Shown in pieces: positions 13,266 to 33,895 of a stretch of DNA of 64,000 nt. The DNA lies in NCBI GenBank assembly GCA_031418215.1, contig JANOXC010000118.1, positions 25,388 to 89,387 on the forward strand. The letters run 5' to 3'. Below the pieces are notes generated by a model. It was not told where the DNA came from. It saw nothing but the letters and a program-made list of their open reading frames with translations, and did not search any database. A program made the position numbers and the translations under genes. Position 1 is the first letter of the stretch, and each line of letters opens with the position of its first letter. This DNA comes from Bacteroidota bacterium. GTDB taxonomy: Bacteria; Bacteroidota; Bacteroidia; AKYH767-A; OLB10.

Positions 13266-14333
13266 TTACTCAACAATCATCAATTTGTTTGTTTTTGTGT
13301 ATTTGCCATTTGAAATTACAATTACATAATTACCCGCGGTAAATTCTGAAAAGTCCGTTGTTATTGAGTGAACTCCTTTCCGCTGTTGCTCTGTTAAAAT
13401 TGTTTTAACCATTTCACCTTTCGTATCAAATAGTGAAATTGTTACTTTTCCCTGCTCTTGCAATTCATAACTTAACTCGCAGAAATTAATAATAGGATTG
13501 GGGTGAATGTTCAATTTAAAAAGATTGTTGTTTTCATTAATTGACGTTACGCCGAAATAATGGTAAGTTGTGTTATTGCCCGACCCTGAATTAGGTACAC
13601 CAAGGGTATCAGAAAGTACATTATAAAAAATATCAGCCGGACTTGATAATCCTGTTACAACTGTTGTTGGCCCTCCTGTAAAAGTGTTGTTAAACATGCT
13701 GATGCCATTTAACGTCCAGGAAGAAACATAATAGTTGCCTGCGCCGTCTTTTGCAATGCCGTCGCAATTACCCAGCGTAGTAGTTGTTACCGTTGAAACA
13801 GTTGCTGTAGTAACATCAAATGCCATGATGGGTGCTGAAGCTCCCCAATTTACAAAAACACATCTGTTGTTGGGGGCATCATAAATAATACCATTGGGGC
13901 TTTTCGCAAGGCCTGTTACAAAAACACTAAAAGCACGAGTGGCCATATCAAAGCGGAATATCTTCTTTGCTGAAAAATCTGTTATATATAAATAGTTTGC
14001 ATCATGCGTAATACCATTCAAAAAAGTAGCGCTTAAATTAATGCTGAATATTTGCGCCGCAGTATTAATGTTATATGCTTTCAATGTTGTGCCGGAGCAT
14101 ACATATAAAGTGTCATTAACAACTTCAATTCCGTGAGGGCCTGTTACGCTTGGAACAAAAATGCTTAATGTGCCGGCACTATTGCGAGCCAAAATATTGT
14201 TTCCGTTGTTATTAGCAATAAGCCAACGGTTATTGGCATAGTCAAATTCGATGCTTTCAGGACTGTTATAGGTTTGTGCGAAGCTGGTAATTGTTGCAAG
14301 TAATAATAATGTTGTAATGATAGGTTTTCTCAT
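13266..14333 (-). CDS. secreted beta-propeller (NHL/YVTN-like) protein with T9SS C-terminal sorting domain
   Basis: A 355-aa protein with a signal peptide. It has repeated strand-turn motifs (YVCSGT, LYITD, YYVSS), and its C-terminal ~80 aa resemble a T9SS C-terminal domain (LNIHPNPIINFCELSYEL...KLMIVE). Confidence 0.6.
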   Translation of the reverse strand: MRKPIITTLLLLATITSFAQTYNSPESIEFDYANNRWLIANNNGNNILARNSAGTLSIFVPSVTGPHGIEVVNDTLYVCSGTTLKAYNINTAAQIFSINLSATFLNGITHDANYLYITDFSAKKIFRFDMATRAFSVFVTGLAKSPNGIIYDAPNNRCVFVNWGASAPIMAFDVTTATVSTVTTTTLGNCDGIAKDGAGNYYVSSWTLNGISMFNNTFTGGPTTVVTGLSSPADIFYNVLSDTLGVPNSGSGNNTTYHYFGVTSINENNNLFKLNIHPNPIINFCELSYELQEQGKVTISLFDTKGEMVKTILTEQQRKGVHSITTDFSEFTAGNYVIVISNGKYTKTNKLMIVE

Positions 14334-15085: not shown

Positions 15086-16792
15086 TTATTGTACGATCAG
15101 CTTTTGTGATACCGATCCTTTTTCATTTCCTATTCTTATAAAATACATTCCTTTAGCTAATTCACTGGTGCTAAAATTATATTGAGCACTTCCTTCAGGA
15201 ATCATTGTATTCATCACCTCCTGTCCAATTGCATTTGTGACCGTTAGCATTAATGCTTGCTTGGTGTTCTCAGTGAAGTTCAACTGAACACGGTCTGTTG
15301 TAGGATTTGGGAAGAGATTATAACTTACAATATTGCTTTCATTCAGTCCCGTCGGAGCACTAAAGATTACTACTGTTCCGTTAGCCAATACACCAATTAA
15401 TGTGAATGCCGGTCCGTTTTGATTTGCAGCGGGATTTAGAAATCCAGAGGCGAGCACCACTGCTGACTGGCCTGCCAATGCTGAAAGATCAGCAGCGAAA
15501 GAAGCAACGATAACAGCGTTATTATTTCCCGGAGTAATATCTAATACATAGGCTGCGGGCGGCACACTTAAGTAGGGGGTAATATTACTATAAGATGCAT
15601 TGTCAACAAGTATAGAAGCTCCTGCTAATACATCAACTGTTGGCGCATCAGAAGCTCCGTGAATAACTCGCAAATCAACATCTCCTGAATTGTTTGCATC
15701 TTCACGCATCTGGTCTTGCAAGAATAAAGTGAATGCTGTTGATTGTGCATCAGGATTCGCTGCGAAGTTTGCAGGATTCAATACACCGTTTGCTACTGCA
15801 ATATAACTGTTGCCGTTTTGTAAGGTCACGCCAAAGTTTTTTAATGTGTCGTTAACCGATGCGCTATTTCCACCGGCAACGCCAATGTTCAATACAACAT
15901 CTGCAGGTACATCAATAAATGCTGTTGCTGTTCTAAAGGCGAAGTTGTCCAATAATTTAGTGCCGTTAACATAAACATCAACTGATGCTGCTGCCGGATC
16001 TGCTGCATTGTGTATGACCTGCAAACGTGCTGTGCTCACTGCAGGGAAAGCTACTACTGTACCGTTGGCCAATGCTGCAAACAATCCGAATGCTGCTCCG
16101 TTTTGATTAGCAGCAGGGTTTAAAAATCCTGATGCAAATACTACTGCACTTCCTCCACCCAATGATGATAAATCAGCCTGGAATGATGCAACAATTGGAG
16201 AGCCGGCTGCAGGTGTTACATCCAATATATAATTGGATGGTGGTACGCTTACATATCCGGTTATGGCGCTGTAGGGTGCATTATCAACAAGTGTTGCAAC
16301 ATTACGTGCTATCACATCAACTGAAGGCGCATCACTTGCTCCGTGTAAGGCGACAAAATCAACATCGGTCATCATAGAAGCCATATTTCTGATATTGTCT
16401 TTCAGAAAAAGTGTAAATGTTGTTGATTGTGCATCAGGATTCGCTGCAAAATTTGCAGGATTCAATACACCATTCGCAACAGCAATGTACCGTTGTCCGT
16501 TCATAAGTGTAACCTGAAAGTTTTTTAATGTGTCATTAACCGACATGCTATTTCCGGCTGCAACGCCAATGTTTAATGTTACACCTGCGGGGACCGTTAA
16601 AAAAGAGGTGGCTGTACGAAAAGCAAAATCAGGTAATGTTAGTACGCCATTTACATATACGTCAACCGTAGCGGCTGCCGGATCTGCTGCATTATGTATT
16701 ACCTGCAACTGTGCTGTCTGGCTATAAGCGTTTGATCCCAGGATTATTCCCGAAGCCAGTAAGATCAATAATGAGGAGAGTTTCTTTTTCAT
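15086..16792 (-). CDS. tandem DUF4397-domain secreted protein with T9SS C-terminal sorting domain
   Basis: A 568-aa protein with a signal peptide. Two ~240-aa internal repeats each begin LQVIHNAADPAAA.VDVYVNG and end ...GFLNPAANQNG.AF. The C-terminal ~80 aa form a T9SS type A C-terminal domain (NLFPNPTTDRVQLNF...GMYFIRI...KLIVQ). Confidence 0.65.
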   Translation of the reverse strand: MKKKLSSLLILLASGIILGSNAYSQTAQLQVIHNAADPAAATVDVYVNGVLTLPDFAFRTATSFLTVPAGVTLNIGVAAGNSMSVNDTLKNFQVTLMNGQRYIAVANGVLNPANFAANPDAQSTTFTLFLKDNIRNMASMMTDVDFVALHGASDAPSVDVIARNVATLVDNAPYSAITGYVSVPPSNYILDVTPAAGSPIVASFQADLSSLGGGSAVVFASGFLNPAANQNGAAFGLFAALANGTVVAFPAVSTARLQVIHNAADPAAASVDVYVNGTKLLDNFAFRTATAFIDVPADVVLNIGVAGGNSASVNDTLKNFGVTLQNGNSYIAVANGVLNPANFAANPDAQSTAFTLFLQDQMREDANNSGDVDLRVIHGASDAPTVDVLAGASILVDNASYSNITPYLSVPPAAYVLDITPGNNNAVIVASFAADLSALAGQSAVVLASGFLNPAANQNGPAFTLIGVLANGTVVIFSAPTGLNESNIVSYNLFPNPTTDRVQLNFTENTKQALMLTVTNAIGQEVMNTMIPEGSAQYNFSTSELAKGMYFIRIGNEKGSVSQKLIVQ

Positions 16793-21665: not shown

Positions 21666-21848
21666 TCATTTACCAGCCGCTGTTTCAAATGTTGTGGTAA
21701 CAAATTGTGACCTCAAGTCAGAAAGTTCCGTTTTTGTTAATTCAAACATAAAATCTTCCGGAAACCGTTCCAAATTTCTTTTTGCCTGTTGCTTCAATGC
21801 CTTGGCAGGCACATCATACAATAATGCTAAGTCAGCATCAAGCATCAC
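21666..21848 (-). pseudogene. ORF6N-domain gene remnant (N-terminal 60 aa only)
   Basis: The sequence MLDADLALLYDVPAKALKQQAKRNLERFPEDFMFELTKTEL matches the N-terminal ORF6N (KilA-N-related) domain of the intact paralog at 27406-27882. It is truncated directly at the repeat insertion. Confidence 0.55.
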
Positions 21849-22140: not shown

Positions 22141-22941
22141 ATGAAAAATAAACGTCGCCCACGAAATAGTAAAACAGTAGCGGAAACCCTGAGAGAAAAT
22201 ATGGAATATATATTTTCAAATACGCCCGGTAATGATCTTACTGAAGCAAGCAAGAAGGCGTGGCTGAATTATATTATTGATTTTGAAGAGTATCATAAAA
22301 ATGCAAAAGATGTAACCGTTTGGGAATTTATTGGTAAGCCCCCTTTCGTTCTCATAGATAAGCTGGACAGTGCATCAATATCACTTGCTTTAGATGCCAT
22401 TTATGAAAAAATGGCATCTAATAATGTGTTACTTGACTTTTGTGTTGTGTATCCCGATGACGTGATTTACAAGTTTATTACAGAAGAGTTGTTTCAACAT
22501 AAAATTCAGGACATTAAGATTCCGGGCGGTAACATTTGCTTTATCTATGAAGAGTTTCATCCGAATCACGACTATGACTTAAGAAGATATAGTAGTGAAC
22601 ACCTGGAGTGCTTATTCAAGCCTGATGTTATTAGAAGTCATTTATCATTTTATGCAATGAATAGTATTTACCTTAATGATAAATTATGTACTAAAGATTC
22701 GCTCGCTGATTTTATCATTGATTTTCATAATTTACATAAGAGGGCGGAACTAAGAAATCATACTATAACCGACTTGACATTTGATCTTGAATTGAATTCC
22801 GGAAAAGTAAGCGTGGATTTTAATTGTTGCTTATTTTTTAACGATGGCGGGCATTTAGAAAAAAAAGAAAATGTAACTTTAAATTACTTATTGGAATATG
22901 ACTTTTGGATTTTGAAAAAAATTGAAAGTTCTTTATTCTAG
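22141..22941 (+). CDS. hypothetical protein (AT-rich island orphan)
   Basis: A 266-aa ORF with a strong AT-rich upstream region and codon usage far more AT-rich than the flanking core genes. No motif was recognised. Confidence 0.5.
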   Translation: MKNKRRPRNSKTVAETLRENMEYIFSNTPGNDLTEASKKAWLNYIIDFEEYHKNAKDVTVWEFIGKPPFVLIDKLDSASISLALDAIYEKMASNNVLLDFCVVYPDDVIYKFITEELFQHKIQDIKIPGGNICFIYEEFHPNHDYDLRRYSSEHLECLFKPDVIRSHLSFYAMNSIYLNDKLCTKDSLADFIIDFHNLHKRAELRNHTITDLTFDLELNSGKVSVDFNCCLFFNDGGHLEKKENVTLNYLLEYDFWILKKIESSLF

Positions 22942-23026: not shown

Positions 23027-23416
23027 TTATCGGTCGATCAGGTATACCTTGATATTTAACTTCAGCCACTGTCCTTTCCATTCTTTCGTTTCCAGCGCTC
23101 CGAAAAGTTGTTTGCCTGCATCCAGTAAACGTGCCGTGCTTTCATTGATGTGCATGGGAAGGTATCCCAGTTTTATTTTATCAGCGGTATAGATAGCTGT
23201 TGCAAAATGATCGAACTGATTTTCCGGTTCGCGTTTTAAGATGAAACGATCGCCGGGTTTTAAGGTGGGCTCCGTTTCTTCTAAGTTCAGGTGTGACGTG
23301 CCTGCAATGTGGCATTCAAGCATGATGAGCTCGCGGACAAAGGGCATTAATGCCTGACTCTTCCCCTGGATGAGTGCTAATAATCCCGGACTGATCTGTA
23401 TTATTTCACTGCTCAT
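23027..23416 (-). CDS. HIRAN-domain protein
   Basis: A 129-aa protein. It shows the IAGTSH(L) motif, the LKREPENQFDHFATAIY motif and the KLGYLPMHINESTARLLDAG motif. Together these match the HIRAN fold consensus (G.ryy / lvREP.N.yD.nAi.V / iGYvp...a..l..lld.g). Confidence 0.55.
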   Translation of the reverse strand: MSSEIIQISPGLLALIQGKSQALMPFVRELIMLECHIAGTSHLNLEETEPTLKPGDRFILKREPENQFDHFATAIYTADKIKLGYLPMHINESTARLLDAGKQLFGALETKEWKGQWLKLNIKVYLIDR

Positions 23417-24209
23417 TGTTCAGCAACTGTTGAATCATTTTTTCCAAGGTTGCTTTTTCATCCATGCAGGCTGAAATAGCATTAAGCGTTTCATTGTTCT
23501 CATTATTAACCCAGCCTTGATCTTCTATATATTCCGAAATTGTGAATGGAAACATTACTTTGATTTCCTGCAGCTTTTGTATCAGTTTAGAAAAGTAAGC
23601 TGCCAACTGCTCATTCTTCTTCTTCAATTGTTCAACCCCGGTAATGAGGTCTTCACTCTTCAAACTAAGCTCTGCAACAGCTGCCAATGCCCTCATTGCT
23701 TCGAGGTCATTTAATGAATATGCCTCCGATAATTTCAGCCACAATGCTGCACGGTTGATATCGCCGGGATATATATCAGGATGCAACTGTTTAGCCAGTT
23801 TATAATAAAGGAGTTTTATCTCTTTGATCTCTTCCTCCGTCAATTTTTCCAGGTTGATAAACATTGATGCTGCATTCAGGATCTCTGCCTCTTTTTTCAG
23901 TTGTTTTAAATGCTCCTGCATTTCCAGCTCAATCAATTCATCAATCAAATCTTCATTAACATCATCATCTCTGTTAATCGCTGCCTGTATTTTTTCCAAC
24001 TTTAATTTCAATCGGAAAACGGTAGTTTGAATACGTAATAATTCCAACCTGTTATTTCCAACAGCTACCAAATACCTCGATTCCAGGTAAGGCTTTACAT
24101 GATACAATAAGTGGCACTTCTCCTCCTCTGCTCTTGCAATTTCATTACAGAGCGCCTCCTGCTGTTTTATCGCTTCCTGGTGTTCATGGGTTAATGCCGG
24201 GGTCGTCAT
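23406..24209 (-). CDS. J-domain (DnaJ-like) coiled-coil protein
   Basis: A 267-aa protein. The central segment LYYKLAKQLHPDIYPGD...LWLKLSEAYSLNDLEAM has the J-domain helix II, the HPD tripeptide and helix III. Long heptad-rich regions flank it. It overlaps the HIRAN gene by 11 bp. Confidence 0.5.
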   Translation of the reverse strand: MTTPALTHEHQEAIKQQEALCNEIARAEEEKCHLLYHVKPYLESRYLVAVGNNRLELLRIQTTVFRLKLKLEKIQAAINRDDDVNEDLIDELIELEMQEHLKQLKKEAEILNAASMFINLEKLTEEEIKEIKLLYYKLAKQLHPDIYPGDINRAALWLKLSEAYSLNDLEAMRALAAVAELSLKSEDLITGVEQLKKKNEQLAAYFSKLIQKLQEIKVMFPFTISEYIEDQGWVNNENNETLNAISACMDEKATLEKMIQQLLNNEQ

Positions 24210-24301
24210 CGTGGAGGAAAGATAGTAAAAAATTAAATCAAGGAATTGGCGTCTACGCTACCGCGTGCGAATCTTTTCTAATATACGAATAAAATCTTAG
24301 C

Positions 24302-25030
24302 CGTCATTGCGATGAGCGATAACCATATTAATGTAATTGAAAAAAGATGAGCGAAGAAGCAATCCCATCATGCATACAACAAGCATCATGCACATACTTC
24401 CCAACAAAAGATTGCTTCGACATTCACTGCTTCTCAGTTCATGTCTCGCAATAACGGAATATTAGAACGTCATTGCGCCGCGCCGTCGGCAAGCCTTATG
24501 CCTCCGCGAAAGCTTTAGCAACACGCAGATGGCGGCCGATGGATGAGGGGGAATGTTGTTTCTGAAATCGAATAAGGTTGAGCGAAGAAACAATCTCATT
24601 AATAGAACCTGAGGTACCACTTACTATTCATGAGATAACCTCACTCATTCTTCGTTCGCAATGACAGTAGATGAAAATTTTAAAGTGGCAAAGTAATCCT
24701 TTCAACAAGCGAACCGTCATTGCGAGCCAATTGGACCAATATGCTCTTACGAAAAACATAAAGTGGCGAAGCAATCTTTTCAAAAGTACCCGATCTGCTA
24801 TTCATAAGATTACTTCCCTCATTCTTCCCTCGCAATGACGTTAGATGAAAATTTAAAGTGGTGTAGCAAAGCAATCCTTTCAATAATTCAACCGTCATTG
24901 CGAGCCACTTATACCAATATGCTCTTACGAAAGACTTAAAGTGGCGAAGCAATCTTTTCAATAGCACCTCTTCTTCTATTCATAAGATTGCTTCACTCGT
25001 TCCTCGCTCGCAATGATGATAGAGGTGCCT
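24302..25030. repeat. dense cluster of family A interspersed repeats (about 7-8 copies, both orientations)
   Basis: The module cgtcattgcgagc...aaagtggcgaagcaatc(t/c)tttcaa and its reverse complement (gattgcttc...gcaatgac) occur repeatedly. There is no convincing ORF here. Confidence 0.75.
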
Positions 25031-25082
25031 CCTTCATAATTAATTTACCCGGCTGTATTATCATTACCTCAAACTTAATGAT

Positions 25083-26146: not shown

Positions 26147-26609
26147 TTAATCATTCTCATCCTTTCTTTTGTATCCAACCTTTTTTCCAGGGGTACTTAA
26201 TGGCAACATAAGTTGTCTAATGGCTTCAAATATTTTATTAATTGCGTCATCATGCATAGCTAATCGGTTTTCCAATTTTTTCAGTTGAGCCGAAAGTTCT
26301 TTATGTGAATCCAGCAGTTTTCTCATTCTTACAAAAGCACGCATTATTGCAATATTTACTTCTCTTGCCCTTTTACTTTTTAGTATTCCCGGAAAGCATT
26401 GCAACCCCTTGCTCTGTAAAAGCATAAGGAAATGCCCCTCCGAACTTGCCTTTAGATGGTATCACATTTTGTGATACCAGAACACTAACTACTTTGTTTG
26501 TTAATACAAACATAAAATCCGGAGGAAAACTTTCAATGTTCCTTTTAACAGCTTGTTTCAATGCCCTGGTTTCTACGTTGTATAATTGAGCAATGTCAAA
26601 ATCAAGCAT
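26147..26609 (-). pseudogene. ORF6N-domain gene with internal frameshift
   Basis: The N-terminal piece (26373-26609: [34 protein letters not shown]...[12 protein letters not shown]) joins the next frame of 26147-26425 (...[25 protein letters not shown]...) to make an ORF6N protein of about 170 aa. The two ORFs overlap at a short homopolymer (about 26376-26392). Confidence 0.6.
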
Positions 26610-27405: not shown

Positions 27406-27882
27406 CTAAATAAGTTCCTTTATTATTTTATATATATTCCCTATATGCTGATTACTTGAAGATTGCTCCAGCTCTATTTTCTCAATTTTTTTCAATAGCT
27501 CTTCATATTCCTTTATTAACCCGCGCATTTTTACAAATATTCTCATGATCTGAATATTTACTTCAATGGCCTGATCGCTGTTCAAAACACTTGAAAGCAT
27601 GGCAACCCCCTGTTCTGTGAATGCCATTGGCATATACCTGGTTCCACCCCAATTTGAGGTGCCAATTTGGTACCTCAAGATTTTCAGGTCTGCAGCACCC
27701 AATTCAAACATAAAATCTTCCGGAAACCGGGTACTATTTCTTCGCACTGCCCTTTTAAGTGATTTAGTCTCCACTCCATATAATACAGCAAGGTCAGCAT
27801 CAAGCATTACTTTTTGTTTTCGGATAATTATGATTTTGCTGAAAATATTTTCTTCAGAATAAACTGTTCTTTTAGGCATCAA
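27406..27882 (-). CDS. ORF6N-domain protein (KilA-N-related, phage anti-repressor-like), intact copy
   Basis: A 158-aa protein. The conserved N-terminal block reads KVMLDADLAVLYGVETKSLKRAVRRNSTRFPEDFMFEL...[23 protein letters not shown]. The C-terminus is a coiled-coil. Confidence 0.7.
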   Translation of the reverse strand: MMPKRTVYSEENIFSKIIIIRKQKVMLDADLAVLYGVETKSLKRAVRRNSTRFPEDFMFELGAADLKILRYQIGTSNWGGTRYMPMAFTEQGVAMLSSVLNSDQAIEVNIQIMRIFVKMRGLIKEYEELLKKIEKIELEQSSSNQHIGNIYKIIKELI

Positions 27883-28759: not shown

Positions 28760-30736
28760 TTACAAAACATTAAATCCAATCATCTCTAAGTAATTATATG
28801 TTGAATCATAGTATTCTGCTTTTCTTGTATGGTCTTCAATGTTACCTTCAGGAACAAAAATCACCATTCCTTGTCGGGCTCTAGTTAAGAGAACCCTATA
28901 AGCATTAATTAAATATTTCTTTCTTTCCGGTTGATTTATATTTTGCCATTTGCTGCCTTTGAATTCAAAAGTTTTCCAACCAACTTCAGCATATCTTAAA
29001 TCGCCATCCCATGCAACACAAGCCCAGTCAAGTTCAAGTCCCTGAACATCAAATTCAGTTGCGACATCTTCTAAATAAAATGAAGAACGAACATCATCCT
29101 TTCCATCCAAAAACCAATTCACGGGATTCATTGGGGATTTAACGTCAATTGCAAACGGTTTTAACCGCTGTGCTTGTGAAGAAACAACCATTCCATAGCG
29201 TTCACTTCCTCTTGCTTTTTCTTTCAACCAATTTTTCGCTTTAAATAAATCTCTTGTTAACACTATTGGATAGTTTGCTGAAATATTTGATAGGGTTTTT
29301 TTAGCTTTTTCAATATTCATGTCTAAAATATTTTTTATGAATAGAGAAAGGTTTTCAGCTCTGAATGAACGCATAGAAACCGAAAGGTGTAAATCAGAAT
29401 TAAATTTTACCTCTGATTTTTCTTGTAATGTTTTTATTGAATTAACAGCCGAATATTCTGAGTCAGTCAAGTTAGGTGAGATGTAAACTTCCCAATCTGA
29501 AAATTTGCTGTTAATAGCATTTAACCACTCCGATATGCCAGCTTCGCCAGTATTTATTTCTTGCCCTCCTCCAACTAAACAGACAATTACAGCCCAATCT
29601 TTGTGTCTATCAAGACAAGAAATTAAAAATTCAGGTTCAGAAAAATCAAAGTCAAGTTGATTTTTTTTCTGCTTCATGAACTTAACCGTTTGTTCTTTAT
29701 TCCAAGCCCTTTGTGCTTCATCAAAAATTGCCACATGGTCGTAAGGTGGATTAGGGTCAACAAGGTAAGCGTCTCTATAATGATGAATTATTTGTATAAA
29801 TGCCTTAACACCCTCCTTCGCTTTCCCTTTGGTTAATTTATTTCCCAGCTCTTTTTCATTCTTGACCTTATCCCTTGTTAACGCCTCTTGAAGAATAGCA
29901 ACCAAAGGTGCGTTGCCAGACAAATAGACACTAGTATTTCCTTTTTCTTTATCAAGATGTGTTGTTGCAACTTTTAACCCAACAAGAGTTTTGCCTGCAC
30001 CTGGGACTCCTGTTACAAAACAAATAATTTTTTTAGGGGTGGCTTTTGCAATACCAATTAATTCAGAAATTGCTTTTGTTGTGTCTCTTAAATTTTTTGC
30101 TGCTGCATCACTTCTTGTTATTTCATCAACTGTGTGAGTATTATAAAGAGAAATAGCTGCTTCAATTATTGTTGGTGTAGGCGAATAGCTTCCATTAGCA
30201 AACTCATCTCCATCTATTTTTTTACCATCGTTAAAAAATAACAGTGTGTTTTTTATTGCTTCATTCAAATTATCCTTGTTAGTTTTTATTGGCAATATCA
30301 AATTATCATTGTGTGATGTTGTTAGGATTTCAATAATAGAATTTTTTGATTCTGTTGCAATAAGTACTGGTGCTAAAACAATTTTATGACTTGGCTTGTG
30401 AAAATTTTTCAAGTCCAGTGCATAATCCCACACTTGTTCAATTTGGTATTGATGAAAATTATTCTCGCCTACTTTAAACTCTATTACAAAAACAACATTT
30501 TTAATAATTACAATGGCATCAACTCTCTTCCCCATTCTTGGAATAGAGAATTCAAAAAATATTACCCCTGTGTAACCATTAATTGCTTTTTTCAGAATTG
30601 GTATCTGTTGTTCCCATGATTTATTTTGGTTTGAAGTAGAATCAAATTGGTTTGACATTGTAATCAAGCCAACGATTTCCTCTGTGCTCTTTATTAAAAA
30701 AGATTCAATATTGTCCTTGAAATAGTAATTCAACAT
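28760..30736 (-). CDS. DUF2075-family nuclease-helicase (Nhi-like): N-terminal PD-(D/E)xK nuclease plus SF1-type P-loop ATPase
   Basis: A 658-aa protein. The N-terminal restriction-endonuclease-like motif is ...FFEFSIPRMGKRVDAIVIIKNVVFVIEFKVG (E...D...ExK). Walker A is ICFVTGVPGAGKTLVG and Walker B with the Q-type residue is HVAIFDEAQRAW. The C-terminal motif INAYRVLLTRARQGMVIFV equals SF1 helicase motif VI (L.TRAr). The gene is isolated in AT-rich noncoding sequence. Confidence 0.65.
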   Translation of the reverse strand: MLNYYFKDNIESFLIKSTEEIVGLITMSNQFDSTSNQNKSWEQQIPILKKAINGYTGVIFFEFSIPRMGKRVDAIVIIKNVVFVIEFKVGENNFHQYQIEQVWDYALDLKNFHKPSHKIVLAPVLIATESKNSIIEILTTSHNDNLILPIKTNKDNLNEAIKNTLLFFNDGKKIDGDEFANGSYSPTPTIIEAAISLYNTHTVDEITRSDAAAKNLRDTTKAISELIGIAKATPKKIICFVTGVPGAGKTLVGLKVATTHLDKEKGNTSVYLSGNAPLVAILQEALTRDKVKNEKELGNKLTKGKAKEGVKAFIQIIHHYRDAYLVDPNPPYDHVAIFDEAQRAWNKEQTVKFMKQKKNQLDFDFSEPEFLISCLDRHKDWAVIVCLVGGGQEINTGEAGISEWLNAINSKFSDWEVYISPNLTDSEYSAVNSIKTLQEKSEVKFNSDLHLSVSMRSFRAENLSLFIKNILDMNIEKAKKTLSNISANYPIVLTRDLFKAKNWLKEKARGSERYGMVVSSQAQRLKPFAIDVKSPMNPVNWFLDGKDDVRSSFYLEDVATEFDVQGLELDWACVAWDGDLRYAEVGWKTFEFKGSKWQNINQPERKKYLINAYRVLLTRARQGMVIFVPEGNIEDHTRKAEYYDSTYNYLEMIGFNVL

Positions 30737-31130
30737 TAATTATTCTTTAGATTATCAAATCTGGCGCATTTAAACTTCTGTTCGATTTGGTATGAACGTC
30801 AGTCATATTACTTAAGTGTACAGTACGAAATCGATAAAATCGTTGGTTGTCGGTTAAAAGGAAATGAAAACTTATAATTTCTTCCAAATATACCCAAAAA
30901 CTACCTCCAGTAAATAGATAAACGCACCACTCATCATTCACGCTTTATTATGAATAACCAGCAGCCTTAATGAACCTTAAAAACTTTTAACAGTGTTTTG
31001 AATAAAACCAACCCCCGCAAAAATTTACTTATCCCGGTTTCAAAAAAAACAACAGGGAAAGCATGCATTAAAAAAACATCCCTTCCCTGCAGTTAAACTC
31101 ATCAACAAGTCTTCATCCGTTAATAATGAA

Positions 31131-31772
31131 TCAATCCTTTTTCTCCGGCTTGTAAAAATCCCCTTCTGTATCTTCATTGTCGCGGATCTTGCTGCTGTAA
31201 GCCATCCTGGCTTGTCGTTCACTGGCAAACATTTGCTGTATGCCTTCATCGTCTTTTTGAAAGGTCATGCTGTTGTTGATGGAGATGGAAACAGCAAATT
31301 CCTCCACGGCATGGTCGGTGCCGATGTAGGTGAAGGTCCAGCGGCTTTCTTTTAATTCTTCGATGAGTTTTTTAATCGTGGCTCCGGAAAATTCACGGGA
31401 GGAGTTTTCTTCACCGTCGGTGAGGATGGTCACCAATACGTTGTAATCCCTTCGACCTTCCAGCACCTTTCGGAGTTTATTCATACTAAAACCCATGGCA
31501 TCGTATAAAGGGGTGGAGGCGTCGGGGTTGTATCGTCGCGCATCAATTTGTTCCAGCTTGCTCACGGGGTCAATGAAATGAAGCATTTTATTGCCAAGTC
31601 CGTTGAAGGAAACGAGGGAGATGAAATGTTCCTGCTCAGGAAATTGTTTTTCAATGCCTTTAATGGTCTGCACAATTTCATTGAAGCCTTTGATGATGTT
31701 TTTTTTAATGGGTTCCATCGAACCGCTTTCGTCTAAAATGATGAGGTTGTGTACTTCATGTCTGTTTTTCAT
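31131..31772 (-). CDS. von Willebrand factor type A (vWA) domain protein
   Basis: The MIDAS motif is LIILDESGSM (DxSxS), followed by downstream T and D residues (ILTDGEEN). It is about 213 aa from the internal ATG. The longer TTG-initiated ORF to 31838 is less likely. Confidence 0.7.
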   Translation of the reverse strand: MKNRHEVHNLIILDESGSMEPIKKNIIKGFNEIVQTIKGIEKQFPEQEHFISLVSFNGLGNKMLHFIDPVSKLEQIDARRYNPDASTPLYDAMGFSMNKLRKVLEGRRDYNVLVTILTDGEENSSREFSGATIKKLIEELKESRWTFTYIGTDHAVEEFAVSISINNSMTFQKDDEGIQQMFASERQARMAYSSKIRDNEDTEGDFYKPEKKD

Positions 31773-31924
31773 ACTGTTTGAATTTAAATGGTTAAAAAAT
31801 AAACTGAATGAATGTTTCCTGCAGTTGAAAAAAAGCAACAGTAAAGCAGTGCGGTAATTTAAAGAGTGGGATGAAAAAAAATCCCATTAAAAGCCCTTTT
31901 ACTAACAGTACGAAATTACAGAAA

Positions 31925-32060
31925 ATTGTGATTGACAAATAAAATGGCTGATAAATAATTAGCCAATGTTACCACATATTGGCTCCCTCTCCTTCGGAGA
32001 GGGCGGGGGGTGAGGTAATAGCACAAATCGAATCAAAGTGGTATGGGCCAATTCCACTGA
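31925..32060. repeat. family B interspersed repeat (unexpanded copy)
   Basis: The sequence ...aattagccaatgttaccacatattggctccctctccttcggagagggcggggggtgaggtaatagcac contains a hairpin ccctctcc/ggagaggg and a G7 tract. It is homologous to 35940-36215. Confidence 0.65.
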
Positions 32061-32074
32061 CAATGCAAAAAAAA

Positions 32075-33895
32075 TCAATCCTTCAACTTCATCACCTCCC
32101 AACCAAACCGTTTTCTTGCAATTGCCATGCATTCTATAAAAGTGTTTTTGGTTTTTAAAAATCCGTAACGTTCTTCCAGCATGTATTGCTCATACTTTTT
32201 CTGTTCGATGAGTTCGGAGAGTATCATCCTGATTTTTTTCGTGGCCGTTTCTTTTACCAAAGAATTAAAGTCCGTTTCTACGGAAAGGTTGCGTCCGTAA
32301 TTATCGAGTAGCTTCTCAATGTTTTCTTCATTGAACAATCCCTGTATAAGCAATGCCCAAACAAGGTTACGTGCCGAGCGTACGAAGAAATATTTATTCT
32401 CCCCGCGGCTCTCAATTTCTTTGATGGCAGCCCCGATGCGGAATTGTATTTTGTAAGCTAAAATTATTTTACGCGTGTCGGCTTTGAGAAATTCTTTCTG
32501 AAATGTTTTATCGTAAATGGCATCTTGTTCAAACACTTTTCCCATATCAGAAACCTTGTCCACCTCGCCCTGCACAGCTAAAAATGTTTGTGCCAGCTTT
32601 CTGATCTTTACTTCTTTCATCTGTTCAATACCCATCTCCCCGAAGTCGGCATCACTTAAGTTGGCAAAGGAGTTTTCCTGCCGTTCGTAGAAGATGCCGT
32701 CCTTGCGGAACTTGTCATCAAACTCCAGTTGTATCATGTCGTTGGCGCGCAGGTTCCAGGGCTCAACGGGATTTTGTTTGTTGTTGGAAATGGTAACCTG
32801 CGTCACAAATTCCTGAGAGCAGTTAGTGATGATCTTTACAATGACTTCAATCTTCTTCAGCGTCTTTTCGTAATCATTGTATCCGGGCTGCTTGCGCAAG
32901 TCGTCAATGAATCGCGATAAAGTTGTAATTGTCTGTGCGCCGTTCAACACACGCGGTTCCACAATCTTGATGTTCCCGCCTTCACCTTCCAGTTTCTCTG
33001 CAAAAAGTGTTACGCCATTATGATGAAAGGTAAAATACTCCGGACTTACTTTTTTATGGACAACAATGTCGCGCAATGATTTTTTAATGGCTTGGTTCGG
33101 CGCTAATTCATCGGTCAATCCTCCACGAATATTTTTTTCGAAGAGACGCTGTTTCATGTCGTTGTGCATCTTATACAAATCGAAGATGTGAATGAAACCC
33201 AGGCTCATTTTTTCGTTGCCTGATGCAATTTTCTTCAGCGGTGTATTGAGTGCAATGTCATACTGAAAGGTTTTTTTCGTCCTTGCTGTCTGATTAATCT
33301 TCTTCGTTTCATTGGAGATGTACTGTATGGTCAGTGTGATGTCTTTGCTGTCGAAAAACTGGTCGATAAAATGTTTTTTTGATTCCAGTTCTTCACGCAG
33401 GCTCTCCAAGACCTTACTGCTCTCGGCACTCTCGGGGTCTCCGTTAAAAACAAAACAGATGTAAACTTTGTTGATGAGGTCTTTGTATTCTTCCAGCTCC
33501 ATCTTAAGCTGTGTAGTTAGTTTGCCGGTATAGGCGGTTGAGCCATCACCGAAAATTGTTTCAATACCGTCTTTGACCAGCCGTGTGTAGGCGTCTTTAA
33601 ACAGCTCGAAGTTTTCGCCCCATTCAAAGTGGTACAGGTACAGGTTTTTGGCGCCTCTTTCGATGTAATAGGCTTCTATCCCTTCTTCATTTTTACCGAT
33701 GGAACAGTAGGGCAGTACAGCCTCCACCTTGCGTTCAAATTTATCAGCGATAAAGAGCGGAGCAAAGTAGTCTTCCTTGTGCCCATAATGCTTTGATTTG
33801 TATTTGAGGTAGGTTTCCGTTAATCTTTCAAGGGTGATGGACATGGTCTGTACGGTTGGTTGGTAAATATCAATAGAGGTTAATTCGTTTTTCAA
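32075..33895 (-). CDS. AIPR-like (abortive-infection phage-resistance family) protein, tentative
   Basis: A 606-aa protein. The central block HHNGVTLFAEK...KIVEPRVLNGAQTITTLSRFID carries an NGAQT motif that I associate with AIPR/DGQHR-type domains. The N-terminal ~280 aa and the helical C-terminal ~200 aa were not recognised. The call rests on my recollection of the family motif. Confidence 0.4.
   Translation of the reverse strand: MKNELTSIDIYQPTVQTMSITLERLTETYLKYKSKHYGHKEDYFAPLFIADKFERKVEAVLPYCSIGKNEEGIEAYYIERGAKNLYLYHFEWGENFELFKDAYTRLVKDGIETIFGDGSTAYTGKLTTQLKMELEEYKDLINKVYICFVFNGDPESAESSKVLESLREELESKKHFIDQFFDSKDITLTIQYISNETKKINQTARTKKTFQYDIALNTPLKKIASGNEKMSLGFIHIFDLYKMHNDMKQRLFEKNIRGGLTDELAPNQAIKKSLRDIVVHKKVSPEYFTFHHNGVTLFAEKLEGEGGNIKIVEPRVLNGAQTITTLSRFIDDLRKQPGYNDYEKTLKKIEVIVKIITNCSQEFVTQVTISNNKQNPVEPWNLRANDMIQLEFDDKFRKDGIFYERQENSFANLSDADFGEMGIEQMKEVKIRKLAQTFLAVQGEVDKVSDMGKVFEQDAIYDKTFQKEFLKADTRKIILAYKIQFRIGAAIKEIESRGENKYFFVRSARNLVWALLIQGLFNEENIEKLLDNYGRNLSVETDFNSLVKETATKKIRMILSELIEQKKYEQYMLEERYGFLKTKNTFIECMAIARKRFGWEVMKLKD

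What the first reader, a model, noticed from the sequence alone, without database searches (positions are those of the whole stretch)
23027..24209. Overlapping operon of a J-domain (HPD) coiled-coil protein and a standalone HIRAN-domain protein inside the accessory island
The upstream 267-aa protein has an internal J-domain (KQLHPDIYPGD ... LSEAYSLNDLEAM) flanked by coiled coils. The downstream gene overlaps it by 11 bp and encodes a 129-aa protein matching the HIRAN fold. HIRAN is known from HLTF/Rad5 as a 3'-OH DNA-end-binding module.

A J-domain partner predicts recruitment of the host Hsp70 (DnaK). Coupling an Hsp70 recruiter to a DNA-end sensor is not, as far as I know, a described bacterial system. 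The pair lies in AT-rich DNA, flanked by a 266-aa orphan (22141-22941) on one side and a repeat cluster on the other. It could be a two-gene stress or defence module, a plasmid/phage-derived replication-restart cassette, or a toxin-antitoxin-like pair.
Basis: partly seen in the sequence, partly recalled or inferred. Interest (0 to 1): 0.65.

Follow-up and report, generated by a model that had tools for sequence, protein, structure and literature searches.

The report
Conserved J-domain plus HIRAN gene pair
Two overlapping genes, one for a protein with an Hsp70-recruiting J-domain and one for a small HIRAN protein with an intact DNA 3'-end pocket, form an almost obligate pair across at least seven bacterial phyla, and I found no published description of it; it probably brings the DnaK chaperone to DNA ends.

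Summary
Two minus-strand genes overlap by 11 nt: 23406-24209 (267 aa) and 23027-23416 (129 aa).

- **HIRAN protein (129 aa).** It is a clear HIRAN protein (Pfam 52.6 bits). Its AlphaFold model matches PDB 3K2Y and DNA-bound HLTF HIRAN. The Asp that reads the DNA 3'-OH in HLTF is invariant.
- **J protein (267 aa).** It is all-helical with an internal J-domain. Its own Pfam score is just below threshold, but HPD is present in 122/122 relatives, and the family profile hits only J-domains in the PDB.
- **The pairing is not chance.** 33 of 38 genomes with the J family have this HIRAN directly downstream. 71 of 74 assessable metagenome loci with this HIRAN have the J gene directly upstream. The two trees are correlated (r = 0.84). 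Flanking genes differ between genomes.
- **Family size.** The J family has at least 1,099 clusters at 50% identity and no dedicated Pfam or NCBIfam model matched. It gave no tblastn hit in the phage or plasmid collections and no PADLOC match.
- **Fusions.** Some members carry N-terminal ADP-ribosylglycohydrolase or NADAR domains and still keep HIRAN downstream.
- **Best reading (inferred, about 0.4).** HIRAN targets free DNA 3' ends and the J subunit fires DnaK there to support repair or restart.

Function is untested.

The parts
23406..24209 (-). Gene for the 267-aa class-C-type J-domain protein, made of a helical scaffold with an internal J-domain
   Evidence: The ORF is listed. Pfam DnaJ scores 26.0 bits over residues 127-165. 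The AF2 model has pLDDT 92.5 and is all-helical. The family has at least 1,099 clusters at 50% identity with E<=1e-30.
23664..23837 (-). J-domain core, residues about 125-182: helix II, HPD, helix III, helix IV
   Evidence: AF2 helices lie at model residues 124-141, 150-164 and 168-181. The model lacks Met1, so protein numbering is +1. The family profile matches PDB J-domains over positions 125-167.
23775..23783 (-). HPD tripeptide codons (His143-Pro144-Asp145)
   Evidence: HPD starts at residue 143. It is present in 122/122 relatives and invariant in alignment A2.
23027..23416 (-). Gene for the 129-aa standalone HIRAN protein
   Evidence: The ORF is listed. Pfam HIRAN gives E 4e-14. The AF2 model has pLDDT 89.6. 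Foldseek finds 3K2Y and HLTF HIRAN at probability 1.0.
23210..23212 (-). Codon of Asp69, the counterpart of HLTF Asp94, the residue that recognises the DNA 3'-OH
   Evidence: HMMER aligns family 'epenefDelA' to HLTF 'DPNNPYDKNA'. Asp69 is invariant in 77/77 paired HIRANs. Asn66 is conserved in 76/77, and position 68 is aromatic or His in 70/77. The role of D94, Y72 and Y93 is taken from PMC5773155.
23406..23416 (-). 11-nt overlap of the J stop region and the HIRAN start (ATGAGCAGTGA), suggesting translational coupling
   Evidence: Sequence read. Across 82 pairs, 47 overlap, 32 are 0-30 nt apart and 3 are further apart.

Best explanation
The two genes encode a two-subunit, DNA-end-targeted co-chaperone.

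- **Targeting.** The HIRAN subunit binds a free DNA 3'-OH end, such as a stalled nascent strand, a gap or a break. It uses the same pocket that HLTF uses.
- **Chaperone recruitment.** The J subunit is proposed to hold HIRAN through its family-specific helical scaffold. Through its HPD-bearing J-domain it docks ATP-bound DnaK and triggers ATP hydrolysis at that site.
- **Outcome.** DnaK then clamps and remodels or evicts whatever protein sits at the end, for example a stalled polymerase or replisome part, or HIRAN itself. Repair or restart can then proceed.
- **Variant with an enzyme head.** In some lineages the J subunit also carries an N-terminal ADP-ribose-removing enzyme (ADP-ribosylglycohydrolase or NADAR). 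ADP-ribosylated DNA next to a stalled 3' end is therefore probably one lesion the module deals with. The window's version lacks such a head.

**Shown here:** both domain identities, the invariant HPD, the conserved 3'-OH pocket residues, the obligate tight gene pairing, and the fusions.

**Inferred:** the J-HIRAN complex, DNA binding, use of DnaK, and the biological role.
For: - **HIRAN fold and pocket.** Pfam 52.6 bits. Foldseek matches DNA-bound HLTF HIRAN at probability 1.0. Asp69 (HLTF D94) is 77/77, Asn66 is 76/77, and position 68 (HLTF Y93) is Y/H/F in 70/77. Residue roles come from PMC5773155.
- **J-domain.** HPD in 122/122. The family profile hits only J-domains in the PDB. Relatives pass the Pfam cut-off: P0090 at 30.5 bits and P0146 at 39.4 bits.
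- **Unit of inheritance.** 33/38 loci from the J side and 71/74 from the HIRAN side are paired. Pairwise identities correlate with r = 0.84, reached by 0 of 999 permutations. 79 of 82 pairs overlap or lie within 30 nt.
- **Self-contained.** Among 46 loci compared, no third gene family recurs beyond a Sel1-repeat gene in 6. Pfam and PADLOC scans of 128 genes flanking the pair in 37 of them agree.
- **Link to DNA or ADP-ribose chemistry.** N-terminal ADP_ribosyl_GH in P0165 and P0193, and NADAR in P0113. The NADAR-J and ARH-J genes are still followed by HIRAN.
- **Chromosomal.** No tblastn hit of the J protein in phage or plasmid collections, and none in a viral-contig scan.
- **Precedents from established knowledge.** DnaK and DnaJ dismantle the lambda P-DnaB complex and monomerise P1 RepA at DNA. 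HscB is a J-protein dedicated to one client.
Against: - No experiment or complex prediction shows that the two proteins bind each other or DNA.
- The window protein's own Pfam DnaJ score (26.0) is below the cut-off (27.8). No separate helix I is seen in the model.
- No SOS (Cheo or LexA-type) or CIRCE heat-shock box was found within 250 nt upstream in 43 loci, so there is no regulatory tie to DNA damage or heat shock. This was a crude test across phyla.
- Only a minority of members carry ADP-ribose hydrolase heads: 16 of the top 150 representatives are longer than 330 aa, and two of those carry ARH. Several other head families are of unknown function.
- The distribution is sporadic and the heads are variable. 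That pattern is also typical of conflict systems.
Confidence: 0.4

Rival explanations
1. Anti-phage or anti-mobile-element defence module. HIRAN senses the free 3' ends of incoming or replicating linear foreign DNA. The J subunit then diverts or hyper-activates DnaK, which many phages and plasmids need for replication. This blocks the invader or triggers abortive infection. The variable N-terminal heads would be alternative sensors or effectors.
For: - The distribution is sporadic and patchy across phyla, with variable flanks.
- The J module carries variable N-terminal heads, an architecture common in conflict systems.
- In this window the pair lies about 4.5 kb from a Schlafen-type helicase, a VWA protein and an AIPR abortive-infection protein.
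- HIRAN also forms the C-terminus of the PADLOC candidate PDC-M03B.
- A few neighbours elsewhere are defence genes: a type I restriction enzyme, PDC-S01/S02 and WYL.
Against: - The J protein matches no PADLOC model, and HIRAN matches only at domain level.
- There is no recognisable toxic effector domain in the canonical two-gene form.
- Most neighbours in 37 loci are housekeeping genes such as GlnA, GatB, ClpP and chorismate enzymes.
- The ARH and NADAR heads are lesion-reversal or signal-degrading enzymes rather than killers.
Confidence: 0.25
2. Toxin-antitoxin or addiction-like pair. Free HIRAN caps DNA 3' ends and blocks replication or repair (toxin). The J protein, with DnaK, keeps it sequestered or removes it (antitoxin).
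For: The pair consists of two small, translationally coupled genes. It is inherited strictly as a unit. It is inserted in unrelated chromosomal contexts.
Against: - The gene order and sizes are atypical for TA pairs. The putative antitoxin is 267 aa, highly structured (pLDDT 92.5) and more divergent than the putative toxin (median identity 0.29 against 0.42).
- It is absent from the plasmid and phage collections searched, where addiction modules abound.
- Fusions to ADP-ribose hydrolases are hard to explain on this model.
Confidence: 0.1
3. HIRAN here reads something other than a DNA end, for example an RNA 3' end or a nucleotide-like ligand such as ADP-ribose. On this reading the module is a chaperone-linked RNA or signal-processing system rather than a DNA repair factor.
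For: The HIRAN pocket recognises a terminal nucleoside 3'-OH plus two stacked bases (PMC5773155), a feature that RNA ends and ADP-ribose share in part. The ARH and NADAR fusions are compatible with soluble ADP-ribose derivatives as well as with DNA adducts (PMC9503650).
Against: All HIRAN domains characterised so far bind DNA. The pocket residues match the DNA-binding HLTF set.
Confidence: 0.1
4. Chance adjacency of two unrelated genes, or mis-called ORFs.
For: None remains after testing.
Against: 33/38 and 71/74 loci are paired in reciprocal censuses across at least seven phyla. The trees are correlated. Both proteins give confident folds.
Confidence: 0.01

Closest known systems
HIRAN domain of eukaryotic HLTF / Rad5 (PDB 4S0N, 4XZF, 5BNH)
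   Same: It has the same beta-barrel fold (Foldseek probability 1.0). The conserved Asn and Asp of the 'NxxD' pocket are kept, together with the aromatic residue that stacks on the terminal bases. The presumed activity, recognition of a DNA 3'-OH end, is the same.
   Different: The window protein is a standalone 129-aa protein, not an N-terminal domain of a SNF2 ATPase / RING ligase. Sequence identity is only about 16%. The proposed energy source would be Hsp70, recruited by a separate J subunit, instead of a SNF2 motor. It also has subfamily-specific invariant residues (P87, N91, R96, D99-x-G101-K102) that did not align to HLTF.
lp_0118 of Lactobacillus plantarum (PDB 3K2Y), a standalone bacterial HIRAN from structural genomics
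   Same: It is the closest solved structure (TM 0.81 on the target, 27% identity; profile E 1e-12). It is also a small standalone bacterial HIRAN of unknown function.
   Different: It lacks the roughly 30-residue N-terminal extension. Whether it has a J-domain neighbour could not be checked here.
Class C J-domain proteins with a dedicated partner (HscB with IscU and HscA; CbpA with CbpM; DjlA; DjlB and DjlC with HscC)
   Same: It has an HPD-bearing J-domain used as a module to aim Hsp70 at one specific client or site. A dedicated partner is encoded next door.
   Different: The J-domain is internal. The flanks are a long helical hairpin and a C-terminal helical region that match no Pfam or NCBIfam model and have no solved structural relative by Foldseek. 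The partner is a nucleic-acid-end binder. The pairing was absent from the J-protein surveys I could read (PMC10410713 and PMC8215388).
Bacterial PriA 3'-terminus-binding pocket ('TT-pocket / HIRAN', Masai 2022, cited in PMC9503650)
   Same: It represents the same concept: recognition of the nascent-strand 3' end at a stalled fork to start restart.
   Different: PriA is a helicase with its own motor, and it has no relation to Hsp70. The comparison rests on a citation only and was not tested here.
PADLOC candidate defence protein PDC-M03B
   Same: Its C-terminal region is a HIRAN domain that matches the window protein (E 2e-11).
   Different: The match is at domain level only, over profile positions about 130-205 of 250. 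There is no J partner in that system, and the window's J protein has no PADLOC match.

Membership tests
J-domain (Pfam PF00226) proteins | HPD tripeptide between helices II and III | tested here: met
   HPD lies at residues 143-145. It is present in 122/122 relatives and invariant in the 111-sequence alignment.
J-domain (Pfam PF00226) proteins | Sequence match to the J-domain profile above the curated threshold | tested here: inconclusive
   The window protein scores 26.0 bits against a cut-off of 27.8, covering profile positions 13-51 of 63. Relatives pass: P0090 at 30.5 bits and P0146 at 39.4 bits. The family profile hits 33 PDB sequences, all J-domains, with best E 3e-7.
J-domain (Pfam PF00226) proteins | Four-helix J fold (helices I-IV) | tested here: inconclusive
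   AF2 gives helices at the positions expected for II, III and IV (model residues 124-141, 150-164, 168-181). No separate helix I is seen, and the preceding long helix ends at 117. Coordinates could not be inspected. The whole-chain Foldseek search did not return J-domain structures.
J-domain (Pfam PF00226) proteins | Stimulates the ATPase of an Hsp70 (DnaK) | not testable with these tools
   This needs a biochemical assay with wild-type protein and an HPD mutant.
HIRAN domain (Pfam PF08797) | Profile match above the curated threshold | tested here: met
   52.6 bits against a cut-off of 24.7, E 4e-14, covering profile positions 3-93 of 96.
HIRAN domain (Pfam PF08797) | HIRAN beta-barrel fold | tested here: met
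   The AF2 model has pLDDT 89.6. The 16 Foldseek matches with E<=0.001 are all HIRAN structures (3K2Y and HLTF), each at probability 1.00.
HIRAN domain (Pfam PF08797) | Conserved 3'-OH pocket residues (HLTF N91, Y93, D94; Y72) | tested here: met
   D69 aligns to D94 and is 77/77. N66 aligns to N91 and is 76/77. Position 68 aligns to Y93 and is Y/H/F in 70/77 (F in the window protein). Position 42 is H/Y/F in 75/77 and is the likely Y72 counterpart, but HMMER did not align it.
HIRAN domain (Pfam PF08797) | Binds DNA 3'-OH ends | not testable with these tools
   This needs binding assays with 3'-OH and 3'-phosphate DNA.
HLTF / Rad5-type fork remodellers | HIRAN fused to a SNF2 ATPase and a RING domain | tested here: not met
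   The HIRAN protein is 129 aa with no other domain, and the partner has only a J-domain. One related locus (L095) has a SNF2 gene two genes upstream, but this does not recur.
Known anti-phage defence systems (PADLOC-DB 2.0) | Proteins match the models of a described or candidate system | tested here: not met
   The J protein has no hit better than E 0.026. HIRAN matches only the HIRAN part of PDC-M03B.
Toxin-antitoxin modules | One product is toxic and is neutralised by the other | not testable with these tools
   Only the compact two-gene layout is seen. The J protein gave no tblastn hit in the plasmid or phage records.

The most novel reading that the evidence does not exclude
This would be a previously unrecognised class of bacterial DNA-damage-tolerance or lesion-reversal machine. 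A HIRAN subunit finds the 3' end of a stalled nascent strand, as HLTF does. The motor is the general chaperone DnaK, recruited by a dedicated J subunit, instead of a SNF2 ATPase. Lineage-specific N-terminal heads (ADP-ribosylglycohydrolase, NADAR, DUF1810 and others) remove the blocking adduct. It would be the first dedicated link between Hsp70 and DNA-end recognition, and a chaperone-assisted route for repairing ADP-ribosylated DNA.
Probability: 0.3. Interest if true: 0.8.

Novelty: new variant of a known kind. Interest (0 to 1): 0.62.

Why it matters
- **HIRAN in bacteria.** HIRAN is well studied in eukaryotic fork remodellers, but bacterial standalone HIRAN proteins have no assigned role.
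- **J-domain proteins in bacteria.** These are the targeting factors of Hsp70, and most bacterial class C members are orphans.
- **What this pair offers.** An almost obligate, translationally coupled J-HIRAN pair, with at least 1,099 clusters at 50% identity across at least seven phyla, gives both problems a concrete and testable handle. It predicts that DnaK is aimed at DNA 3' ends.
- **The fusions sharpen the question.** The ADP-ribosylglycohydrolase and NADAR fusions suggest a link to reversal of DNA ADP-ribosylation, the chemistry used by DarT-type toxins.
- **Consequences.** If this is right, it adds a chaperone-driven branch to bacterial replication-stress or conflict biology. If it turns out to be a defence or addiction module, it would be a new one with an unusual chaperone-dependent logic.

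Tried and rejected
- **Whole-chain fold search of the J model.** Foldseek against the PDB gave only non-significant helical-bundle matches (best E 0.11, TM 0.2). This says nothing about the flanking helices.
- **Foldseek against viral models.** The top hits were phage 'J domain-containing proteins' of about 280 aa, with TM only 0.29. I could not fetch their loci, so this lead is unresolved. PHROGs gave only weak J-level hits.
- **Phage or plasmid origin.** tblastn of two J-family members found nothing in 50,697 phage and 72,556 plasmid records. The viral-contig scan was also empty. Phage HIRANs exist but are distant (about 33% identity) and unpaired. I rejected this origin.
- **A conserved third gene.** All-against-all clustering of genes called in 46 loci found only a Sel1-repeat gene, in 6 Clostridia or Eggerthellaceae loci. 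The window's 266-aa orphan and its TPR gene are not conserved partners.
- **Regulatory boxes.** No Cheo box, E. coli-type LexA box or CIRCE element was found within 250 nt upstream in 43 loci. This is uninformative across such diverse phyla.
- **A natural J-HIRAN fusion to model as a complex.** None was found. All extensions of the J module are N-terminal heads of other kinds.
- **Literature.** Six full-text searches, plus targeted reading of three catalogue or review papers (two J-protein surveys and one NAD/ADP-ribose survey), found no description of the pair. The 2006 HIRAN paper (Iyer, Babu and Aravind) and the Barriot 2020 catalogue of bacterial J-proteins are not in the library, so prior mention there cannot be excluded.
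- In some searches the minus-strand references dropped the start codon instead of the stop. Alignment and model numbering is therefore one less than protein numbering. This is corrected in the report.
Full report
**1. What is in the sequence**

On the minus strand there are two ATG-initiated ORFs: 23406-24209 (267 aa) and 23027-23416 (129 aa). The second starts inside the end of the first, sharing 11 nt (ATGAGCAGTGA).

The pair has GC 0.412 against a window mean of 0.382.

**2. The downstream protein is a HIRAN protein**

- Pfam HIRAN scores 52.6 bits (cut-off 24.7), E 4e-14.
- An AlphaFold2 model built on 17 relatives has pLDDT 89.6.
- The 16 Foldseek matches in the PDB with E<=0.001 are all HIRAN structures. 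They are the standalone bacterial HIRAN lp_0118 (3K2Y, TM 0.81 on the target, 27% identity) and human HLTF HIRAN, including DNA-bound forms, each at probability 1.00.
- In HLTF, D94 recognises the primer 3'-OH, and Y72 and Y93 pinch the last two bases (PMC5773155).
- HMMER aligns the family segment 'REPENxFD..A' to HLTF 'RDPNNPYDKNA'.
- Among 77 distinct HIRANs that sit in J-HIRAN pairs, Asp69 (D94) is invariant, Asn66 (N91) is 76/77, position 68 (Y93) is Y/H/F in 70/77, and position 42 (the likely Y72 equivalent, by inference) is H/Y/F in 75/77.

The end-binding pocket is therefore conserved. DNA binding itself is inferred.

**3. The upstream protein has a real but divergent internal J-domain**

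- The window protein scores 26.0 bits on Pfam DnaJ, just under the 27.8 cut-off, and matches only profile positions 13-51, which cover helix II, HPD and helix III.
- HPD (residues 143-145) is present in 122 of 122 relatives and is invariant in a 111-sequence alignment.
- Relatives pass the Pfam threshold (30.5 and 39.4 bits).
- A family profile searched against all PDB sequences returns 33 hits, every one a J-domain (best E 3e-7, positions 125-167).
- The AlphaFold2 model (pLDDT 92.5, pTM 0.81) is entirely helical. It has a long hairpin (model residues 7-78 and 85-117), three helices where J helices II-IV belong (124-141, 150-164, 168-181), and then helices 191-216, 221-227 and 230-265. The model lacks Met1, so one must be added for protein numbering.
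- No separate helix I is visible.
- The parts outside the J-domain match no Pfam or NCBIfam model and have no significant structural relative in the PDB. They nevertheless contain invariant residues (Y46, P221) and near-invariant ones (converted to protein numbering).

**4. The pairing is a conserved unit, not an accident**

- *From the J side.* Thirty-eight genome loci carry a full-length family member, drawn from Bacteroidota, Bacillota, Actinomycetota, Verrucomicrobiota, Kiritimatiellae, Marinimicrobia and Geobacter. Of these, 33 have this HIRAN immediately downstream. One locus ends at a contig edge. Two have a second J paralog in place of HIRAN, and two are divergent.
- *From the HIRAN side.* Of 80 metagenome loci, 74 have room upstream, and 71 of those carry the J gene there.
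- *Spacing.* Across 82 pairs, the genes overlap in 47, lie 0-30 nt apart in 32, and lie further apart in 3.
- *Co-inheritance.* Pairwise identities of the two proteins correlate with r = 0.84, reached by 0 of 999 permutations. For distant pairs only, r = 0.54. This shows co-inheritance and is compatible with co-evolution of an interface.
- *Flanking genes.* They differ between genomes and are mostly housekeeping. Across the 46 loci clustered, only a Sel1-repeat gene recurs, in 6 Clostridia or Eggerthellaceae loci.
- *Family size.* An exhaustive HMM search finds 1,099 clusters at 50% identity with E<=1e-30, and 2,542 with E<=1e-10.

**5. Where it is not found**

The J protein has no PADLOC match, and HIRAN matches only the HIRAN part of candidate PDC-M03B. 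tblastn with two family members finds nothing in 50,697 phage or 72,556 plasmid records, and a viral-contig scan found nothing. Phage HIRANs exist but are distant and unpaired. PHROGs gives only weak J-level hits. The module therefore appears to be chromosomal.

**6. A functional clue from fusions**

Sixteen of the top 150 representatives are longer than 330 aa. In all but one the extra sequence lies N-terminal to the J module, and one has a C-terminal extension.

- Two of these N-terminal heads are ADP-ribosylglycohydrolases (P0165, P0193).
- From the first profile search, one head is NADAR (P0113) and one is DUF1810, the Rv1873 fold of PDB 2JEK.
- At least three further head families have no annotation.
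- The NADAR-J and ARH-J genes are still followed by HIRAN.

ARH and NADAR remove ADP-ribose from macromolecules or process ADP-ribose derivatives. PMC9503650 discusses NADAR in DarT-DarG-like systems. A replication fork halted at an ADP-ribosylated base leaves a nascent 3'-OH next to the lesion. That is exactly what a HIRAN pocket would recognise.

**7. Most likely mechanism (confidence about 0.4)**

HIRAN binds a free DNA 3' end. The J subunit, held to HIRAN by its helical scaffold, docks DnaK-ATP through HPD and triggers hydrolysis. DnaK then remodels or removes the protein occupying that end, and where a head is present the lesion is reversed.

Shown here: the domain identities, the invariant motifs, the obligate pairing and the fusions. 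Inferred: the complex, DNA binding, use of DnaK and the physiological role. Precedents from established knowledge are DnaK and DnaJ dismantling lambda P-DnaB and monomerising P1 RepA, and HscB serving a single client.

**8. Rivals**

- *Defence reading (about 0.25).* It is favoured by the patchy distribution, the variable heads, and, in this window, a nearby Schlafen-type helicase, VWA and AIPR cluster. It is weakened by the lack of an effector domain and by mostly housekeeping neighbours elsewhere.
- *Toxin-antitoxin reading (about 0.1).* It fits the compact layout. It does not fit the sizes, the absence from the plasmid records searched, or the hydrolase fusions.
- *Non-DNA ligand for HIRAN (about 0.1).* This cannot be excluded.
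- *Chance adjacency.* Refuted.

No SOS or CIRCE box was seen upstream, which is uninformative across these phyla.

**9. Comparison with the known, and novelty**

Each domain belongs to a known superfamily. The HIRAN protein meets every testable HIRAN criterion. The J protein meets the HPD criterion and the helix II-III criterion but falls short of the Pfam threshold on its own.

The system is not HLTF/Rad5-like in architecture, since it has no SNF2 or RING domain. It is not a PADLOC system.

I found no paper describing a J-HIRAN operon in six full-text searches and three catalogue or review papers read for these terms, namely two J-protein surveys and one NAD/ADP-ribose survey. Two relevant subscription papers could not be read.

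I rate it a new variant of a known kind: a dedicated class C J-protein with a novel client or adaptor. The more radical reading is given under the novel case.

**10. Verdict**

Interest is 0.62: this is a large, unannotated, tightly conserved two-gene module with a specific, testable prediction, but no functional data yet.

Noticed in passing
window 24300-25035: The 873-nt gap between the J gene start and the divergent TPR gene holds about three tandem units of roughly 175 nt (68-100% identity). The units contain internal palindromes (GAAGCAATCTTTT / AAAAGATTGCTTC and TCGCAATGAC / GTCATTGCGA). No Rfam family matches. This looks like a REP-like or miniature repeat cluster and could affect expression of the pair.
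   Followed up: partly
window 28760-33895 (minus strand): A Schlafen-group-3-type helicase (28760-30736), a VWA protein (31131-31838) and an AIPR abortive-infection protein (32075-33895) form a defence-like cluster about 4.5 kb from the pair.
   Followed up: partly
window 21666-21848, 26147-26609, 27406-27882 (minus strand): Three ORF6N-type ORFs share the motif 'DFMFEL...'. The middle one is split over two overlapping frames and may be a frameshifted pseudogene (ORF6N Pfam labels come from related contigs).
   Followed up: no
L020:3962-5646 and L021:3986-5647: In an Anaerofustis and a Lachnospiraceae genome, the J-family gene is followed by a second J-family paralog whose motif is HPE rather than HPD, and HIRAN is absent. 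This may be a J / pseudo-J heterodimer variant.
   Followed up: partly
P0165, P0193, P0113, P0096; loci L095:6001-7907, L097:89-2493: The J module is fused at its N-terminus to ADP-ribosylglycohydrolase (twice), NADAR or DUF1810. At least three further unannotated head families exist (P0153/P0174; P0160/P0188/P0199/P0267; P0057/P0076/P0242).
   Followed up: partly
L041:27-710, L042:2924-3808, L047:3028-3924, L051:492-1373, L052:2755-3825, L038:5124-5816: A Sel1-repeat protein gene lies next to the pair in six Clostridia or Eggerthellaceae loci, usually immediately upstream on the same strand. It may be a lineage-specific third component.
   Followed up: partly
L015:3989-4801; L106; L110: In some loci the J gene is split or truncated while HIRAN is intact. 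In L015 it forms two ORFs of 79 and 183 aa. These may be pseudogenes or assembly errors.
   Followed up: no
BFVD entries A0A7T8EPI4 (Erwinia phage pEa_SNUABM_5), A0A386K5Y3 (Dickeya phage JA11): Phage 'J domain-containing proteins' of about 280 aa are the best Foldseek matches of the J model among viral structures (E 9e-4 and 1.6e-2; probability 0.99-1.0 but TM about 0.29). There is no detectable sequence match by tblastn. They may share the architecture.
   Followed up: no
window 13266-14333 and 15086-16792 (minus strand): Two proteins carry the type IX secretion C-terminal sorting domain (Por_Secre_tail). This places the window in Bacteroidota.
   Followed up: no
L095:445-4533: In the NADAR-J locus, a 1,362-aa SNF2-family helicase and an alpha/beta hydrolase lie just upstream on the same strand as the pair. 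This recalls the HIRAN-SNF2 combination of HLTF, but it is seen in only one genome lineage.
   Followed up: no
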